From the IMG/VR virus record IMGVR_UViG_3300045988_011408, positions 1 through 5,895 of that record: DNA of 5,895 nt; one strand, given 5' to 3'. This document shows positions 1 through 5,895 of this stretch, piece after piece (the first letter of the stretch is position 1; each line of letters opens with the position of its first letter). The position numbers and the translations under genes were made by a program. Under the pieces are notes generated by a model that worked only from the letters and a program-made list of their open reading frames with translations, ran no database searches and had not been told where the DNA came from. Source of the stretch: a virus.

Positions 1-99
1 CGGAGCAATGCAGAAGGCACGCTAGACTTCTGGCACTATGCGGACAACTACAACAACGTACCGACACTAAGTCAAGAGTGGATGAATGAAGGCAAAAAC
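1..99. repeat. Terminal redundancy: 1..99 is base-for-base identical to 5797..5895. This is a circular genome written with an overlap, unit length 5796 bp
   Basis: Direct comparison of the first 99 nt with the last 99 nt of the window gives identical strings. The VP1 reading frame is continuous across this junction. Confidence 0.92.
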
Positions 100-2103: not shown

Positions 2104-2116
2104 TTGGTGTCACCTA

Positions 2117-2157
2117 GCCCAGTACCTATCAAGTAAGGTACTGGGCATTATTATTCT
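2117..2157 (+). terminator. Rho-independent-type terminator after VP4. An 11-bp perfect stem GCCCAGTACCT/AGGTACTGGGC with an 8-nt loop is followed by ATTATTATTCT
   Basis: Inverted repeat at 2117..2127 and 2136..2146, starting 14 nt after the VP4 stop. A T/A-rich run follows. Confidence 0.6.
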
Positions 2158-2160
2158 AAT

Positions 2161-2214
2161 CGCGCACACACGTACACGCGAAAACTACACGCGCACGCGT
2201 GCGCACGTATTATA
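2161..2214. repeat. Two perfectly alternating pyrimidine-purine (CG/CA) tracts that are Z-DNA-prone. They carry a 14-bp perfect palindrome GCGCACGCGTGCGC (2191..2204) and repeated GCGCAC/TACACGCG motifs
   Basis: 2161..2180 CGCGCACACACGTACACGCG alternates py-pu over 20 nt. 2187..2214 alternates over about 28 nt. GCGCAC occurs at 2162, 2191 and 2201, with the inverted GTGCGC at 2199. TACACGCG occurs at 2173 and 2186. GC content here is far above the surrounding AT-rich intergenic DNA. Confidence 0.7.
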
Positions 2215-2246
2215 ATATAACTTGTTGTAGTCGTAGTAGTAGAGTA

Positions 2247-2411
2247 TGTTGAAAAGTTGAAAAGTATAATTTTAAAACGTTAGAGCGTTAAAAATAAACA
2301 AAAAACAATGTTGAAAGATTTGTTGAAAACTTGTTGAATTGTTGAAATACTCTATTATGCTAAAGTTTAACAATGTTGAAATGTTGAAAACTCTGTTGAA
2401 AATGTTGAAAA
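2247..2411 (+). repeat. Iteron-like array with at least 10 direct copies of (A)TGTTGAAA(A) in three clusters. This is a candidate protein-binding, origin or regulatory array
   Basis: The GTTGAA core starts at 2248, 2256, 2310, 2322, 2333, 2341, 2375, 2383, 2395 and 2404. All copies are in the same orientation, spaced 8-12 bp within clusters. A degenerate copy lies at 2224. The region has stops in all frames and no coding potential. Confidence 0.8.
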
Positions 2412-2449
2412 CCCAATAGAAGCAGTCCGGAATCGAACGGGAAAGTCAC

Positions 2450-2496
2450 GGCCGCGCTTCGCTGGAAGTTGCGCCGCGTAGCGCGCAACAGCGGCC
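2450..2496. other. GC-rich inverted-repeat island: GGCCGC...GCGGCC outer arms with internal GTTGCGC/GCGCAAC arms. A candidate ssDNA stem-loop such as a complementary-strand origin or primase/PriA-type entry site
   Basis: GGCCGC at 2450..2455 pairs with GCGGCC at 2491..2496. GTTGCGC at 2468..2474 pairs with GCGCAAC at 2483..2489. Local GC is about 65% inside an AT-rich intergenic region, with no ORF. Confidence 0.45.
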
Positions 2497-2504
2497 ATCT
2501 AATG

Positions 2505-2572
2505 AAAAATTCTGCAAAAAAACTTCAAAAAAAACTTGACAAAAACAAAAAAATATGATAGAATATAATCAG
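2505..2572 (+). promoter_or_regulatory. Strong sigma70-type promoter. It has an A-tract UP element (2505..2535), -35 TTGACA (2536..2541), a 17-bp spacer, and an extended -10 TGaTAGAAT (2556..2564). The predicted TSS is near 2571
   Basis: The -35 is a consensus hexamer. The TG is at the -15/-14 position, and the -10 is TAGAAT. Phased A5-8 tracts lie immediately upstream, with AAAAACTTC / AAAAAACTTG repeated. The site lies 20 nt upstream of the SD for the 2592 ORF. Confidence 0.65.
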
Positions 2573-2798: not shown

Positions 2799-2818
2799 AA
2801 AACCATGGGGTGGTAAAA

Positions 2819-3202
2819 ATGAGTACAGTAATCTTAAACCAAACAAACAGCGACCGATTAACGCAACACTTCAAAGCAGAAGAGTTTAGATGCAAAGACA
2901 AAACAAAAGAATTTCTATGGGCACCTGAACTACTCGCAGTACTGGAAACAATCAGAAACCACTTCAACGCACCAGTGATCATCAACAGCGGATACAGAAC
3001 GCCAAGCTGGAACAGCAAAGTAAACGGAGCACCAAACAGCTATCACTGCAAAGGGATGGCGGCAGATATCGTAGTAAAAGGGCACAGCAGTAGAGAAGTT
3101 GCAAAATACGCAGATAGCCTCATGGAAGAAGGCGGTGTAATAAGATACACAAACTTCACACACATTGATGTGCGCGAAAAACGATACAGAAAGGGGGTGT
3201 AA
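2819..3202 (+). CDS. Peptidase M15A family protein (zinc D-Ala-D-Ala carboxypeptidase / LAS fold, Peptidase_M15_3), 127 aa. Putative cell-wall hydrolase or endolysin
   Basis: The protein carries FKAEEFRCKD, then INSGYRTPSWNSKVNGAPNSYHCKGMAADI with a His-x6-Asp zinc-ligand pair (H at 3044..3046, D at 3065..3067). It ends with GGVIRYTNFTHIDVRE (His at 3161..3163). This is the canonical M15A domain layout. There is no signal peptide and no TM segment. ATG 2819 sits 5 nt after GGTGG. The track's GTG 2810 start is less likely. Confidence 0.8.
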   Translation: MSTVILNQTNSDRLTQHFKAEEFRCKDKTKEFLWAPELLAVLETIRNHFNAPVIINSGYRTPSWNSKVNGAPNSYHCKGMAADIVVKGHSSREVAKYADSLMEEGGVIRYTNFTHIDVREKRYRKGV

Positions 3203-4373: not shown

Positions 4374-5895
4374 TGAACGACACTTCAACCAAGTACCGGA
4401 AACGCACGTCAGCCGAACACGATTCAATCGAGACCAGAACATTCTCACGACTTTCGATGCAGGTAAACTGATTCCGTTCTATGTAGACGAAGTATTGCCC
4501 GGCGATACATTCAGCGTGGACACGGCGGCAATTATCCGAATGACAACGCCGAAATATCCTGTTTTCGATGATGCATTCATCGATTTCTACTATTTCTTCT
4601 GTCCGAACAGAATCCTTTGGGATAACTTCAAAAGCTTCATGGGAGAAGTTGAAAGCACACCATGGATGCCAACAAGAACATACACAGTACCAAAAATTAT
4701 CATAAATGGAAACTCAGAGAACAATGATAAAAAAGGGCCGAAAGAAGAAAGTATCCTCGACTACATGGGCGTGCCGACCAAAATCAAAGGAAAAGTAGAA
4801 ATCAACGCACTACCTATCAGAGCATACGTTAAAATCTGGAATGAATTTTTCAGAGACCAAAACGTAGGCAACCAAGCATCAATAATCACAAATGATGAAG
4901 ACGTCGAATACTATGAAAAGGAACAGGAAAATGAAGAAGAAATTCTTGGAGGAGCAAGAGTTGGAGGAAAATGTCTACCGGTTAGCCGCTTCCACGATTA
5001 CTTCTCAAGCTGTCTGCCGTATCCTCAGAGAGGGCCGGAAGTCACGATCGCACTAACAGGAAACGCTCCTATTAAAATGTTCGATGACAACGGAATCAAC
5101 GGGCCGACAAATCCAACAACAATCTGGATGAGTGGAGCCGCATCAAGTCTGGGACAGAACGATAAAAACGAAACAATCGTAGCACTAGGCTCAACAGAGC
5201 AGACGGGTGGAACATCCGTTGCAAGATACATTGCAACAGACCTGAGCAACATCGAAGCCGCAACCATCAACCAGTTGAGACAGGCTTTTGCAGTTCAGCA
5301 CTATTACGAAGCGCTGGCACGGGGCGGCAGTCGTTACCGTGAACAGGTAAGAGCAATTTTTGGTGTAAGCATTAGCGACAAAACCGTGCAGGTGCCGGAG
5401 TATCTGGGGGGTGGACGCTATCATGTCAACATTAACCAAATCGTTCAGACTTCTGGACAGCAGACCGAAAACGATACGCCTATCGGCGAAACCGGTGCAA
5501 TGTCTGTAACGCCTATCAACGAAAGTTCTTTCACCAAGAGCTTTGAAGAACACGGTTTCATAATCGGTGTTATGTGCGTACGCCACAATCATAGCTATCA
5601 GCAGGGCTTAGAGAGATTCTGGAGCCGCAGAGACAGACTGGACTACTATTTCCCGCAGTTTGCAAATCTGGGCGAACAGCCTGTCAAGAAAAAGGAAATC
5701 ATGCTCACCGGAACAGAAACAGATGAAGAGACCTTCGGATACCAGGAAGCATGGGCCGATTATCGCATGAAGCCTAACCGCGTGAGCGGTAAAATGCGGA
5801 GCAATGCAGAAGGCACGCTAGACTTCTGGCACTATGCGGACAACTACAACAACGTACCGACACTAAGTCAAGAGTGGATGAATGAAGGCAAAAAC
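4360..5895 (+). CDS. VP1: Major capsid protein VP1 (phiX F-like jelly-roll capsid), N-terminal 512 codons. The ORF has no stop in the window and continues across the circular junction into 100..219
   Basis: ATG at 4360 sits 6 nt after AGGAGG (4348..4353). The translation MNRNNERHFNQVPETHVSRTRFNRDQNILTTFDAGKLIPFYVDEVLPGDTFSVDTAAIIRMTTP... matches the conserved gokushovirus VP1 N-terminus (F.QVP..., TTFDAG.LIP, DEVLPGDTFS). Downstream blocks also match the family (FWSRRD.LDYYFPQFANLG, YQEAWADYRMKPNRVSG). The frame stays open to the window end, and 5797..5895 equals 1..99. Confidence 0.9.
   Translation, partial: MNRNNERHFNQVPETHVSRTRFNRDQNILTTFDAGKLIPFYVDEVLPGDTFSVDTAAIIRMTTPKYPVFDDAFIDFYYFFCPNRILWDNFKSFMGEVESTPWMPTRTYTVPKIIINGNSENNDKKGPKEESILDYMGVPTKIKGKVEINALPIRAYVKIWNEFFRDQNVGNQASIITNDEDVEYYEKEQENEEEILGGARVGGKCLPVSRFHDYFSSCLPYPQRGPEVTIALTGNAPIKMFDDNGINGPTNPTTIWMSGAASSLGQNDKNETIVALGSTEQTGGTSVARYIATDLSNIEAATINQLRQAFAVQHYYEALARGGSRYREQVRAIFGVSISDKTVQVPEYLGGGRYHVNINQIVQTSGQQTENDTPIGETGAMSVTPINESSFTKSFEEHGFIIGVMCVRHNHSYQQGLERFWSRRDRLDYYFPQFANLGEQPVKKKEIMLTGTETDEETFGYQEAWADYRMKPNRVSGKMRSNAEGTLDFWHYADNYNNVPTLSQEWMNEGKN
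5797..5895. repeat. Second copy of the 99-bp terminal redundancy (same DNA as 1..99)
   Basis: Identical to 1..99. Circular permutation or assembly overlap, not a biological repeat. Confidence 0.92.

What the first reader, a model, noticed from the sequence alone, without database searches (positions are those of the whole stretch)
2221..2411. Array of at least 10 direct TGTTGAAA iterons in the large intergenic region
Ten same-orientation copies of an 8-mer occur within about 165 bp, in three clusters with 8-12 bp spacing. This is far beyond chance, even in AT-rich DNA, and no annotated feature explains it. Microvirus rolling-circle origins are normally inside or next to the Rep gene and do not use iterons. 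Such an array suggests cooperative binding of a phage or host protein. It could be a complementary-strand origin, an RNAP or host-factor sink built from -35-like TTGAAA hexamers feeding the downstream consensus promoter, or a packaging or partition-like signal. The motif family continues as AAACTTCAAAA / ACTTGACAAAAAC into the -35 of the promoter at 2536.
Basis: seen in the sequence. Interest (0 to 1): 0.7.

Follow-up and report, generated by a model that had tools for sequence, protein, structure and literature searches.

The report
Host-type DnaA-box origin module in microvirus
The repeated TGTTGAAA words are binding sites for DnaA, the protein that starts bacterial chromosome replication, and with the adjacent TAG repeats and AT-rich stretch they copy the DNA-opening module of the chromosome origin of gut Oscillospiraceae, which I found reported nowhere for this family of tiny single-stranded DNA phages.

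Summary
There are 8 exact and 2 one-mismatch TGTTGAAA copies, all on the + strand at 2247-2410, and none elsewhere in a 5,796-nt circular gokushovirus genome (0.27 expected).

TGTTGAAAA is the complement of TTTTCAACA, an exact match to the low-GC DnaA-box consensus TT(T/A)TC(C/A)ACA. Just 5' of the first two boxes lie a 4-bp spacer, TAG-TCG-TAG-TAG-TAG (DnaA-trios, 3'-GAT-5') and an AT-rich tract. This is the order and spacing of the bacterial basal unwinding system (BUS).

A scan of bacterial genomes for the array hit the dnaA-dnaN intergenic origin in 16 of 120 loci. Fourteen of those are Clostridia, mostly Oscillospiraceae and Ruminococcus. They show the same box profile and identical multi-box strings up to 33 nt.

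The roughly 205-bp cassette occurs in more than 130 distinct gokushovirus contigs whose Rep is 35-97% identical. It is cleanly inverted in some. More distant microviruses carry canonical TTATCCACA boxes instead.

So the array is a host-DnaA binding array, not Rep iterons, a -35 sink or a single-strand origin. The most likely function is DnaA-driven opening and helicase loading on the double-stranded replicative form. This step is inferred, and DnaA titration is the main rival. I found no prior report.

The parts
2208..2411 (.). The whole cassette: an oriC-like module made of an AT-rich tract, DnaA-trios, a spacer and 10 DnaA-type boxes in three clusters.
   Evidence: It is conserved as a unit in 56 GenBank gokushovirus records and 139 distinct cassettes. 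It is cleanly inverted as a unit in L037, L056, L060 and L071 while both flanks keep their orientation. Similarity to relatives ends at 2411-2412.
2208..2221 (.). AT-rich tract TATTATAATATAAC, the candidate DNA-unwinding element. The unwound region would run on through 2227.
   Evidence: It occupies the position of the AT-rich region in the host dnaA-dnaN origins L119, L136, L154 and L156. An AT-rich tract is always present here in relatives but its sequence varies (mean column conservation 0.69). Its function is inferred.
2222..2227 (+). TTGTTG, a phage-specific invariant hexamer in frame with the trios. Its role is unexplained.
   Evidence: It is invariant across phage clades with VP4 35-97% identical. 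It is absent from the host origins and from the L286 cassette.
2228..2242 (+). DnaA-trio repeats TAG TCG TAG TAG TAG, where 5'-TAG-3' equals 3'-GAT-5'. The complement, CTA repeats, gives 5'-TnnT-3' motifs like the DnaD recognition element.
   Evidence: The trio consensus 3'-GAT-5' and its position next to the boxes come from PMC8287927. The DRE as the complement of the trios comes from PMC10201434. The same TAGTCGTAGTAGTAG string is found in the Anaerofilum oriC L177, and (TAG)5 in L119, L126 and L136. This is the most conserved part of the cassette (0.954).
2243..2246 (.). 4-bp spacer AGTA between the trios and the first box.
   Evidence: Its length is fixed at 4 bp while its sequence is free and G+C-rich in relatives: AGCC, GGGC, GGAG, GCAC. 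The hosts have GGGG, GGGC or GGTA. This matches the '4 bp on average GC-rich gap' of the BUS. Column conservation is 0.54.
2247..2263 (-). Tandem DnaA-type boxes next to the trios. On the - strand they read TTTTCAACT (2263-2255) and TTTTCAACA (2255-2247).
   Evidence: They have 0 and 1 mismatches to TT(T/A)TC(C/A)ACA, and 2 and 3 to TTATCCACA. There are 12 nt between the distal box and the first trio, against a BUS peak of 10-13. The identical string TGTTGAAAAGTTGAAAA occurs in the host origins L119 and L154.
2309..2348 (-). Second box cluster with 4 boxes, at 2309-2317, 2321-2329, 2332-2340 and 2340-2348 (+ strand coordinates).
   Evidence: AATGTTGAAAGATTTGTTGAAAACTTGTTGAA matches the Ruminococcus oriC L126 at 31 of 32 positions, spacers included. 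The positions are conserved in relatives.
2374..2411 (-). Third box cluster with 4 boxes, at 2374-2382, 2382-2390, 2394-2402 and 2403-2411.
   Evidence: It matches the Oscillospiraceae oriC L200 at 32 of 33 positions, and relatives L014, L017 and others match at 33 of 33. Some GenBank relatives lack this cluster, with matches ending at query position 143.
2160..2207 (.). G+C-rich (CG/CA)n quasi-palindromic block that bounds the cassette. It contains the left junction of the natural inversions.
   Evidence: The inversion junctions read ...ACGCGT|cassette|ACGCGC... in L035 versus L060. The block is dispensable, since L056 lacks it. It has no significant fold (z = +0.66).

Best explanation
The array is a cluster of ten binding sites (DnaA boxes) for the host replication initiator DnaA. 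They are written in the dialect used by the probable hosts, gut Oscillospirales: TTTTC(A/C)ACA, seen on the + strand as TGT(T/G)GAAAA. The array is joined to a copy of the bacterial basal unwinding system, which consists of two tandem boxes, a 4-bp spacer, DnaA-trios (TAG repeats) and an AT-rich tract.

Proposed mechanism, acting on the double-stranded replicative form:
1. DnaA-ATP fills the boxes.
2. It oligomerises from the tandem boxes onto the TAG-repeat strand.
3. This melts the adjacent AT-rich tract (2208-2227).
4. DnaD binds the complementary CTA/TnnT strand.
5. The host helicase and primase are loaded.

This would give the phage a Rep-independent, host-controlled way to start or boost replication of the replicative form, possibly plasmid-like maintenance. 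As a side effect it would soak up DnaA.

Shown here: the sequence identity of boxes, trios, spacing and order with real dnaA-dnaN origins; selective conservation of the boxes and trios; independence from the phage Rep; independence from orientation.

Inferred: DnaA binding itself, melting, helicase loading, and what the phage gains.
For: 1. Five of the ten units match the low-GC DnaA-box consensus 5'-TT(T/A)TC(C/A)ACA-3' exactly and four have one mismatch (consensus from PMC3322544; counts).
2. The - strand from 2263 to 2208 reads TTTTCAACT/TTTTCAACA - TACT - CTA CTA CTA CGA CTA - CAACAA - GTTATATTATAATA. That is tandem boxes, a 4-bp gap, at least 3 consensus trios, then an AT-rich tract, with 12 nt from the distal box to the first trio. 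This is the BUS definition of PMC8287927.
3. A blind scan of 185,579 bacterial genomes for three TGTTGAAA within short gaps returned 120 loci. In 16 of them the array sits between dnaA and dnaN. Pfam confirmed DnaA and the beta clamp in L136 and L119. About 0.05 would be expected by chance, by my own rough estimate. Fourteen of the 16 are Clostridia, mostly Oscillospiraceae, Ruminococcus and Anaerofilum. Many of them carry (TAG)n-GGGG/GGGC-TGTTGAAAC-TGTTGAAAA next to an AT-rich tract.
4. Box profiles are the same in host and phage. The T:G ratio at the variable position is 113:23 in host and 800:151 in phage. Multi-box strings including their spacers are shared at 33/33, 37/39 and 31/32.
5. 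Across 139 distinct cassettes, column conservation is 0.954 for the trios plus TTGTTG and 0.907 for the boxes, against 0.667 for the inter-box DNA.
6. The same cassette is present in phage clades whose VP4 (Rep) is 35-97% identical. Microviruses L286 (Rep 29% identical) and L406 (Rep 35%) carry canonical TGTGGATAA/TTATCCACA boxes instead, and L286 also has (TAG)5. The repeat therefore follows the DnaA dialect, not the Rep.
7. The cassette is cleanly inverted, or placed in another intergenic region, in several lineages. This fits an autonomous element that acts on double-stranded DNA.
Against: - No binding, unwinding or replication experiment exists. Everything downstream of sequence identity is inference.
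- Rolling-circle microviruses are not known to need DnaA (my own knowledge). A Rep gene and a separate candidate nick hairpin are present, so a second initiation system is not obviously required.
- In the phage, 8-bp and 12-bp box periods are common (267 and 127 of 773 close pairs). Host origins favour 9 and 11. At an 8-bp period, adjacent 9-bp boxes overlap by one base and may not be occupied together.
- The pure A+T tract in this window is only 13 bp. Host origins show roughly 25-40 bp by eye.
- The invariant TTGTTG between the AT tract and the trios has no counterpart in host origins and is unexplained.
- Host origins of this type are often bipartite and may need more than this module to fire (my own knowledge of B. 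subtilis oriC).
- The host assignment rests on metagenome-assembled genomes only.
Confidence: 0.72

Rival explanations
1. A pure DnaA sink. The boxes bind DnaA, but the purpose is titration. Hundreds of replicative-form copies with 10 boxes each would starve the host origin of DnaA, stop host initiation and free the replisome for the phage. No origin would fire on the phage DNA.
For: The box identity is as in the best explanation. There are many boxes per genome, and orientation and position are free. From my own knowledge, DnaA-box regions of B. subtilis oriC on multicopy plasmids interfere with chromosome initiation.
Against: Titration needs only boxes. Yet the most conserved part of the cassette is the trio block with its fixed 4-bp spacer and adjoining AT tract (0.954 versus 0.907 for the boxes). 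That block is the part specific to DNA opening. The two readings are not mutually exclusive.
Confidence: 0.14
2. DnaA-assisted rolling-circle initiation. DnaA melts the cassette only to expose a VP4 (Rep) nick site as single-stranded DNA. Candidates are the AACTTG/TTG at 2219-2227, which resembles the phiX174 core CAACTTG/A, or a nearby site. The cassette would then be the double-strand origin itself, and inverting it would switch which strand is packaged.
For: The phage-specific invariant TTGTTG, preceded in this clade by AAC, lies exactly in the region that would be melted. It is absent from host origins. In the 38-kb viral contig L237 a BUS-like element is followed directly by CTTGATATAG. 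CTTGATA ends the origin sequence shared by the pC194/pUB110 plasmid family (PMC5031790). The cassette moves and inverts as a self-contained unit.
Against: The C of ACTTG is T in the 53-58% VP4 clades, which read ATTTGTTG. A better nick candidate exists outside the cassette: the conserved hairpin at 2117-2146, whose loop reads CTTGATA on the - strand. It keeps its orientation and its place after VP4 while the cassette flips. TTGTTG lies on the trio strand, which DnaA itself would cover.
Confidence: 0.08
3. Iterons for a phage protein (VP4 Rep, or VP5), as in the pMV158 bind locus or the iterons of CRESS-DNA viruses.
For: The repeats are direct and lie in the main intergenic region next to the Rep gene and a conserved hairpin.
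Against: The identical arrays sit in bacterial dnaA-dnaN intergenic regions that carry no phage genes. The unit is unchanged across phages whose VP4 is only 35-47% identical. The unit changes to the canonical DnaA box in L286 and L406. Orientation and distance to the hairpin are not fixed.
Confidence: 0.03
4. A transcriptional element: a cluster of -35-like TTGAAA hexamers or an UP-like sink for RNA polymerase, or an array of Spo0A '0A boxes' (TGTCGAA) that couples the phage to sporulation.
For: TTGAAA resembles a -35 hexamer, and two weak 9/12 promoter-like matches fall inside the array. TGTTGAA differs from the 0A box by one base (consensus from memory), and many Oscillospirales form spores.
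Against: Those -10 partners are poor (AATACT, GAAAAT) and I saw no conserved -10 hexamer in the alignment of relatives. The cassette is inverted or elsewhere in many relatives. C at the diagnostic 0A position occurs in 1 of 953 phage units and 1 of 138 host units. The adjacent trios have no role in either model.
Confidence: 0.03

Closest known systems
Basal unwinding system (BUS) of bacterial chromosome origins: DnaA-boxes, DnaA-trios and an AT-rich region (B. subtilis incC; Richardson, Pelliciari and Murray)
   Same: The elements are the same, in the same order, polarity and spacing: tandem boxes, a 4-bp gap, 3'-GAT-5' trios strongest next to the boxes, then A+T-rich DNA, with the complement of the trios carrying TnnT motifs. 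The phage BUS is identical at 37 of 39 nt to that of a Ruminococcus origin.
   Different: It lies in a 5.8-kb rolling-circle ssDNA phage, not between dnaA and dnaN. The tandem boxes are 8 bp apart rather than 9-12. The AT tract is short. There is an extra invariant TTGTTG. Activity is untested.
dnaA-dnaN intergenic oriC of Oscillospiraceae and Ruminococcaceae (loci L119, L126, L136, L154, L177, L200 and others)
   Same: The box dialect TTTTC(A/C)ACA and the T:G ratio at the variable base are the same. Multi-box strings and spacers are shared. The (TAG)n-GGGN-box-box junction is the same.
   Different: Host origins are longer, mix both box orientations and favour 9- and 11-bp periods. The phage cassette has all ten boxes in one orientation, in three tidy clusters.
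DnaA-box clusters outside oriC that titrate DnaA (E. coli datA; the B. subtilis DnaA-box clusters), and DnaA boxes in plasmid and phage-plasmid origins (P1, F, pSC101, RK2). This comparison is from my own knowledge.
   Same: These are clusters of DnaA boxes on a replicon other than the chromosome origin. They use host DnaA as an accessory or as a sink.
   Different: Those clusters lack the trio and AT-tract unwinding unit, or they work together with a plasmid Rep bound to its own iterons. Here there are no Rep iterons, and the replicon is a rolling-circle ssDNA virus.
Iterons of rolling-circle replicons (pMV158 bind locus; iterons of CRESS-DNA and geminiviruses)
   Same: Direct repeats lie near a Rep gene and a hairpin in a small rolling-circle genome.
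   Different: Those repeats co-vary with their Rep and keep a fixed relation to the nick hairpin. These do neither, and they occur in bacterial chromosomes.

Membership tests
DnaA-box cluster / basal unwinding system (oriC-type) | A 9-bp asymmetric box within 2 mismatches of TTATCCACA or of the species-specific consensus | tested here: met
   Five boxes have 2 mismatches to TTATCCACA and 0 to TT(T/A)TC(C/A)ACA. Four more have 1 mismatch to the latter (consensus).
DnaA-box cluster / basal unwinding system (oriC-type) | A second, tandem box no more than 3 bp from the first and in the same orientation | tested here: met
   The boxes at 2247-2255 and 2255-2263 are in the same orientation with no gap. 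As 9-mers they overlap by one base, which is closer than the usual 9-12-bp period.
DnaA-box cluster / basal unwinding system (oriC-type) | A short (about 4 bp, often G+C-rich) gap, then repeated DnaA-trios 3'-GAT-5', strongest next to the box; 10-13 bp from the distal box to the trios | tested here: met
   The 4-bp gap is AGTA here and GGGC, GGAG or GCAC in relatives. There are three consecutive TAG repeats, then TCG, then TAG. There are 12 nt from the distal box to the first trio.
DnaA-box cluster / basal unwinding system (oriC-type) | An A+T-rich unwinding region beyond the trios | tested here: met
   2208-2220 is 13/13 A+T and 2208-2227 is 17/20 A+T. This is shorter than in the host origins.
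DnaA-box cluster / basal unwinding system (oriC-type) | The same motif marks genuine chromosome origins of some bacteria | tested here: met
   In 16 of 120 genome hits the array lies between dnaA and dnaN.
DnaA-box cluster / basal unwinding system (oriC-type) | DnaA-ATP binds the boxes and separates the strands | not testable with these tools
   This needs EMSA, footprinting or a strand-separation assay with host DnaA.
Bacterial chromosomal oriC | Located on the chromosome next to dnaA or dnaN and sufficient for chromosome initiation | tested here: not met
   The cassette lies between VP4 and a small ORF or peptidase gene of a 5.8-kb microvirus. It works like an oriC module but is not one.
Rep iterons of rolling-circle replicons | The repeat sequence co-varies with the Rep protein and keeps a fixed position and orientation relative to the nick site | tested here: not met
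   The unit is the same with VP4 35-97% identical. The orientation flips. The same arrays occur in bacterial origins.
Single-strand (complementary-strand) origin | Strand-specific, strongly structured ssDNA | tested here: not met
   The DNA fold of 2207-2350 gives z = -0.94. All boxes are direct repeats on a C-poor strand. Both orientations exist in nature.
Sigma-70 promoter or -35 cluster | A -35 hexamer paired with a -10 hexamer at 16-18 bp, with fixed polarity towards a gene | tested here: not met
   There are only two 9/12 matches, with poor -10 hexamers and no conserved -10 partner that I could see in the alignment of relatives, and the cassette is inverted in several relatives.
Spo0A 0A-box array | TGTCGAA core with C at position 4 (consensus from memory) | tested here: not met
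   C at that position occurs in 1 of 953 phage units and 1 of 138 host units.

The most novel reading that the evidence does not exclude
A large group of uncultivated gut gokushoviruses carries a functional miniature chromosome origin taken from, or moulded on, the oriC of their Oscillospirales hosts. With it, the double-stranded replicative form would replicate as a DnaA-dependent, cell-cycle-coupled episome. That would be a plasmid-like carrier state without integration, alongside classical Rep-driven rolling-circle replication. The 'dialect' of the boxes would then serve as a built-in host label for microviruses in general.
Probability: 0.3. Interest if true: 0.88.

Novelty: new variant of a known kind. 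Interest (0 to 1): 0.78.

Why it matters
Microviruses are the textbook case of Rep-driven rolling-circle replication with no role for DnaA. They are also among the most abundant and persistent phages of the mammalian gut, and almost none has a known host.

A conserved host-origin unwinding module in their main non-coding region implies an unrecognised, host-initiator-dependent step in their life cycle. That step could be replication of the replicative form, episomal persistence, or shut-off of host initiation.

It also gives a simple sequence-based host predictor, by matching box dialect and BUS to bacterial origins. Here that points to Oscillospiraceae and Ruminococcaceae.

It supplies a compact natural origin of about 205 bp that could be tested as a replicon for genetically intractable gut Clostridia. 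Finally, the natural inversions offer a ready-made experiment on which strand these phages package.

Tried and rejected
- tRNA and Rfam searches of the window found nothing. The T-loop-like GTTCGATTCC at 2428-2437 (- strand) is not a tRNA.
- A literature search for the 8-mer itself returned only primers.
- Searches pairing Microviridae, gokushovirus or microvirus with DnaA or DnaA box found nothing relevant.
- Rep iterons, a -35 sink, a single-strand origin and Spo0A boxes were each rejected. Reasons are given under the rival explanations and the membership test.
- A parS-like reading (TGTT...GAAACA) and OmpR/WalR-type direct repeats were considered from memory and dropped. The units match the DnaA consensus better, the spacing is not helical-phase, and the arrays sit at dnaA-dnaN.
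- A partner DNA-binding protein encoded just downstream (ORF 2583-2780) was rejected, because that ORF is not universal. L049 runs straight into the peptidase gene.
- A search of the plasmid collection gave only short chance-like hits and one 5-box cluster in a Subdoligranulum contig that is not next to dnaA.
- A scan for three canonical TGTGGATAA boxes in viral contigs mostly hit larger phages. Only 1 of 120 hits was a microvirus, so I could not show that canonical-box arrays are common in the family.
- I did not establish whether the cassette was captured from a host origin or converged on it. Similarity beyond the functional motifs and their spacers was not detectable.
Full report
**Context**

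The window carries a 99-nt terminal direct repeat, so it is a circular genome of 5,796 nt. All genes are on the + strand:
- the major capsid protein (about 4360 to the end, continuing to 219; Phage_F, E = 2e-132);
- a 281-aa VP2-like ORF (242-1087);
- VP4/Rep (1084-2103; REP_ORF2-G2P);
- a peptidase M15 (2810-3202);
- VP5 (Phage_ORF5) and the VP3 scaffold protein (Chlamy_scaf).

It is a gut gokushovirus. Its nearest GenBank relatives, from pig, human and monkey faeces, are 72-76% identical over the matched parts. The finding lies in the 480-nt intergenic region 2104-2582.

**The observation**

TGTTGAAA occurs 8 times exactly and twice with one mismatch. All copies are on the + strand between 2247 and 2410, and none lies elsewhere on either strand. 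Shuffling predicts 0.27 copies per window.

**Conservation and anatomy**

The first 309 nt of the intergenic region are better conserved among relatives (79-88%) than the genes are. Similarity stops exactly at the end of the array. Seven aligned relatives show a fixed layout:
- a hairpin right after the VP4 stop codon;
- a G+C-rich (CG/CA)n block;
- an AT-rich tract;
- an invariant AACTTGTTGTAGnCGTAGTAGTAG;
- the repeats, in which TGTTGAAA alternates with TGTGGAAA;
- a variable G+C-rich block;
- a strong promoter (TTGACA-17-TAGAAT).

Of 80 IMG/VR relatives with VP4 83-97% identical, about 70 have the repeats at the same offsets from that anchor.

**The cassette moves as a unit**

In L037, L056, L060 and L071 a roughly 210-bp piece is cleanly inverted. 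It consists of the AT tract, the anchor and the array. VP4, the hairpin, the upstream G+C block, the downstream region and the promoter all keep their orientation. The junctions lie in quasi-palindromic CG-rich DNA. GenBank records also match the cassette on both strands, but I did not check those against gene direction.

The element is therefore an autonomous unit whose function does not depend on its polarity towards the genes, the hairpin or the promoter. That already argues against a directional -35 sink and against a strand-specific ssDNA signal. Single-stranded folding of the cassette is unremarkable (z = -0.94), whereas the hairpin at 2117-2146 is highly significant (z = -5.25).

**Identification**

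A very distant microvirus, PQ007026 (Rep 27% identical), has the same 8-mer in both orientations in its own intergenic region. This suggested a factor other than Rep.

TGTTGAAAA is the complement of TTTTCAACA, and TGTGGAAAA is the complement of TTTTCCACA. Both match exactly the DnaA-box consensus reported for low-GC Mollicutes, 5'-TT(T/A)TC(C/A)ACA-3' (PMC3322544). Both are 1-2 mismatches from TTATCCACA.

The invariant anchor is a run of 5'-TAG-3' triplets, which is the DnaA-trio 3'-GAT-5'. The bacterial basal unwinding system (BUS) is defined as:
- tandem DnaA boxes no more than 3 bp apart;
- a gap of about 4 bp, often G+C-rich;
- trios that are strongest next to the boxes, 10-13 bp from the distal box;
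- DNA that gets unwound (PMC8287927).

The complement of the trios is the DnaD recognition element, made of TnnT motifs (PMC10201434).

The - strand from 2263 to 2208 reads TTTTCAACT/TTTTCAACA | TACT | CTA CTA CTA CGA CTA | CAA CAA | GTTATATTATAATA. Every sequence-level criterion is met (see the membership table). In relatives the 4-bp gap is G+C-rich: AGCC, GGGC, GGAG, GCAC.

**Decisive test**

I scanned one genome from each of 185,579 bacterial and archaeal species for three TGTTGAAA copies within short gaps. None of them contains the phage anchor, so none is a phage contig.

The densest arrays are in Oscillospiraceae and Ruminococcus genomes. In L136 the array fills the gap between a DnaA gene and a beta-clamp gene. 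It ends ...TTTTCCACTGTTTCAACA GCCC CTACTACTACTACTATTA followed by 40 nt of A+T. L119 has the mirror-image arrangement.

With those two proteins as probes, 16 of the 120 loci have the array between dnaA and dnaN. Fourteen of the 16 are Clostridia. I estimate about 0.05 such loci by chance, assuming 1 kb of origin per 2.5 Mb genome.

In the phage's orientation the host modules read, for example:
- L119: gtatatatgtt TAGTAGTAGTAGTAG GGGG TGTTGAAAC TGTTGAAAA
- L177 (Anaerofilum): cattataa TAGTCGTAGTAGTAG GGGC ...TGTTGAAAA
- Phage: tattataatataacttgttg TAGTCGTAGTAGTAG AGTA TGTTGAAAA GTTGAAAA

**Quantitative agreement between host and phage**

I compared 171 host boxes with 1,238 phage boxes. The free positions have the same composition:
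- T at position 0: 0.84 in host, 0.88 in phage;
- T:G at the variable position: 0.82:0.18 in host, 0.85:0.15 in phage;
- A at position 7: 0.94 in host, 0.89 in phage.

For TGTNGAAA, N is T 800, G 151, C 1, A 1 in phages, and T 113, G 23, C 1, A 1 in hosts.

Phage and host share strings of several boxes together with their spacers. AAATGTTGAAAACTATGTTGAAAATGTTGAAAA is 33/33 between several relatives and the Oscillospiraceae origin L200, and the window matches at 32/33. A 39-nt BUS is 37/39 between phage L265 and the Ruminococcus origin L126.

Across 139 distinct cassettes, column conservation is 0.954 for TTGTTG plus the trios, 0.907 for the boxes, 0.667 for the inter-box DNA and 0.54 for the 4-bp gap. 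Selection therefore acts on exactly the parts that DnaA would read.

**Independence from Rep**

Ninety-one of them encode a VP4 relative. The identity bands are about 84-96%, 51-59%, 45-49%, 35-40% and 28-29%, and the cassette layout is the same in all but the last band. In the 35-40% band the cassette lies upstream of VP4 in the opposite orientation.

In L286 (VP4 29% identical) the element reads (TAG)5 GCAT TGTGGAAA TGTGGAAA, followed by four TGTGGATAA, the canonical DnaA box. L406 (VP4 35% identical) has three TTATCCACA at an 11-bp period upstream of its Rep gene. The repeat therefore follows the DnaA dialect, not the phage Rep.

**Mechanism**

Shown: the cassette is, at sequence level, a DnaA-box cluster joined to a BUS of the type found in Oscillospirales chromosome origins. 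It is under selection in its DnaA-readable parts. It acts independently of orientation.

Inferred: on the replicative form, DnaA-ATP binds the boxes, extends onto the TAG strand and opens 2208-2227. DnaD, DnaB and DnaI then load the helicase. This gives host-driven initiation, either theta-type amplification or episomal maintenance. It would also titrate DnaA.

The main rival is titration alone. It is weakened because the unwinding-specific part of the cassette is the best conserved. A second rival is that DnaA opens the DNA for VP4 to nick. This is suggested by the unexplained invariant TTGTTG and by L237. It is weakened by the separate, orientation-fixed hairpin that carries a CTTGATA loop.

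**Weak points**

- There is no experiment.
- The 8-bp box period is commoner in the phage than in hosts.
- The AT tract is short.
- The hosts are known only from metagenome-assembled genomes.
- It is unresolved whether the cassette was captured from a host origin or converged on it.

**Comparison and novelty**

The element works like a chromosomal BUS and DnaA-box cluster. It meets all sequence-level criteria for that kind, but it is not a chromosomal oriC. Four literature searches pairing microvirus terms or phage genomes with DnaA or DnaA boxes found no report of this. I rate it a new variant of a known kind: a host-origin unwinding module resident in rolling-circle ssDNA phages.

Noticed in passing
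window 1-99 and 5797-5895: There is a 99-nt exact terminal direct repeat, so the window is a circular genome of 5,796 nt. The capsid gene runs across the junction, from about 4360 to the end and on to 219.
   Followed up: yes
window 2106-2146: A hairpin lies directly after the VP4 stop codon: GCCCAGTACC-TATCAAGTAA-GGTACTGGGC (z = -5.25). Its stem shows compensatory changes in relatives and its loop CTATCAAG is invariant. On the - strand the loop reads CTTGATA, the 3' end of the origin sequence shared by the pC194/pUB110 plasmid family (PMC5031790) and, from memory, of the phiX174 origin core. It is preceded by GGTGTCACC. The pair CTTGATA...AGGTGACAC also occurs on the coding strand in the distant microvirus L089 (about 2505-2530), and AGGTGACACC occurs in L406. 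If this is the VP4 nick site, this clade would nick and package the strand complementary to its genes.
   Followed up: partly
window 2411-2500: This is a variable G+C-rich block between the cassette and the promoter. Relatives share GAAGCAGTCCGG...GGAAAGTCAC and have a long stem with covarying arms (GGCCGC...GCGGCC here, GTCATGC...GCATGAC in KT264788 and MG945157). The - strand has a T-loop-like GTTCGATTCC, but ARAGORN and Rfam find nothing. The fold is not better than shuffles (z about -0.9). It could be a single-strand origin or a terminator.
   Followed up: partly
window 2160-2207; L035 versus L060 junctions: Alternating purine-pyrimidine (CG/CA)n blocks flank the cassette and contain the inversion breakpoints (ACGCGT|...|ACGCGC). 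Being self-complementary, they could mediate the inversions by recombination. They are also prone to forming Z-DNA or cruciforms. L056 lacks the upstream block.
   Followed up: partly
window 2222-2227: The invariant TTGTTG (AACTTGTTG in this clade, ATTTGTTG in the 53-58% VP4 clades) lies between the AT tract and the trios. It is present in all phage cassettes of this dialect but in none of the host origins.
   Followed up: partly
window 2536-2564 and 2770-2798: Two near-consensus sigma-70 promoters (TTGACA-17-TAGAAT with a TG extension, and TTGACA-17-TACAAT), each followed by a strong Shine-Dalgarno sequence. They precede a small non-universal ORF (2583-2780) and the peptidase M15 gene (2810-3202). 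This is Firmicutes-style expression signalling, consistent with the inferred host.
   Followed up: no
L237 3650-3725 (IMGVR_UViG_3300034030_000018, 38 kb): A much larger viral contig has ATTTCCACATTTCCACA GGCA CTACTACTACTA followed immediately by CTTGATATAG. That is a BUS-like element abutting a rolling-circle nick-like motif. No dnaA or dnaN lies within the 11.6 kb held.
   Followed up: partly
L286 (around 4258, - strand) and L406 2458-2488: Distant microviruses carry canonical DnaA boxes. L286 has (TAG)5-GCAT-TGTGGAAATGTGGAAA plus four TGTGGATAA. L406 has three TTATCCACA at an 11-bp period upstream of Rep. L089 (PQ007026) has three TTTTCAACA at a 12-bp period plus two boxes in the opposite orientation, with no trios.
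   Followed up: partly
L050 4060-4900 (IMGVR_UViG_3300045988_086966, 8.8 kb): This close relative (VP4 85% identical) has the hairpin followed by what looks like reverse-strand coding sequence instead of the cassette, within the part of the contig that is held. It may be an insertion or a chimeric assembly.
   Followed up: no
L188, L207, L112, L185 (genome-contig hits): Dense TGTTGAAA/TGTGGAAA arrays of 9-15 boxes, with TAG trios in L188, occur in Mesoaciditoga, Anaerolineae and Bipolaricaulota genomes with no dnaA or dnaN in the 8 kb held. They may be origins away from dnaA or other DnaA-box clusters.
   Followed up: no
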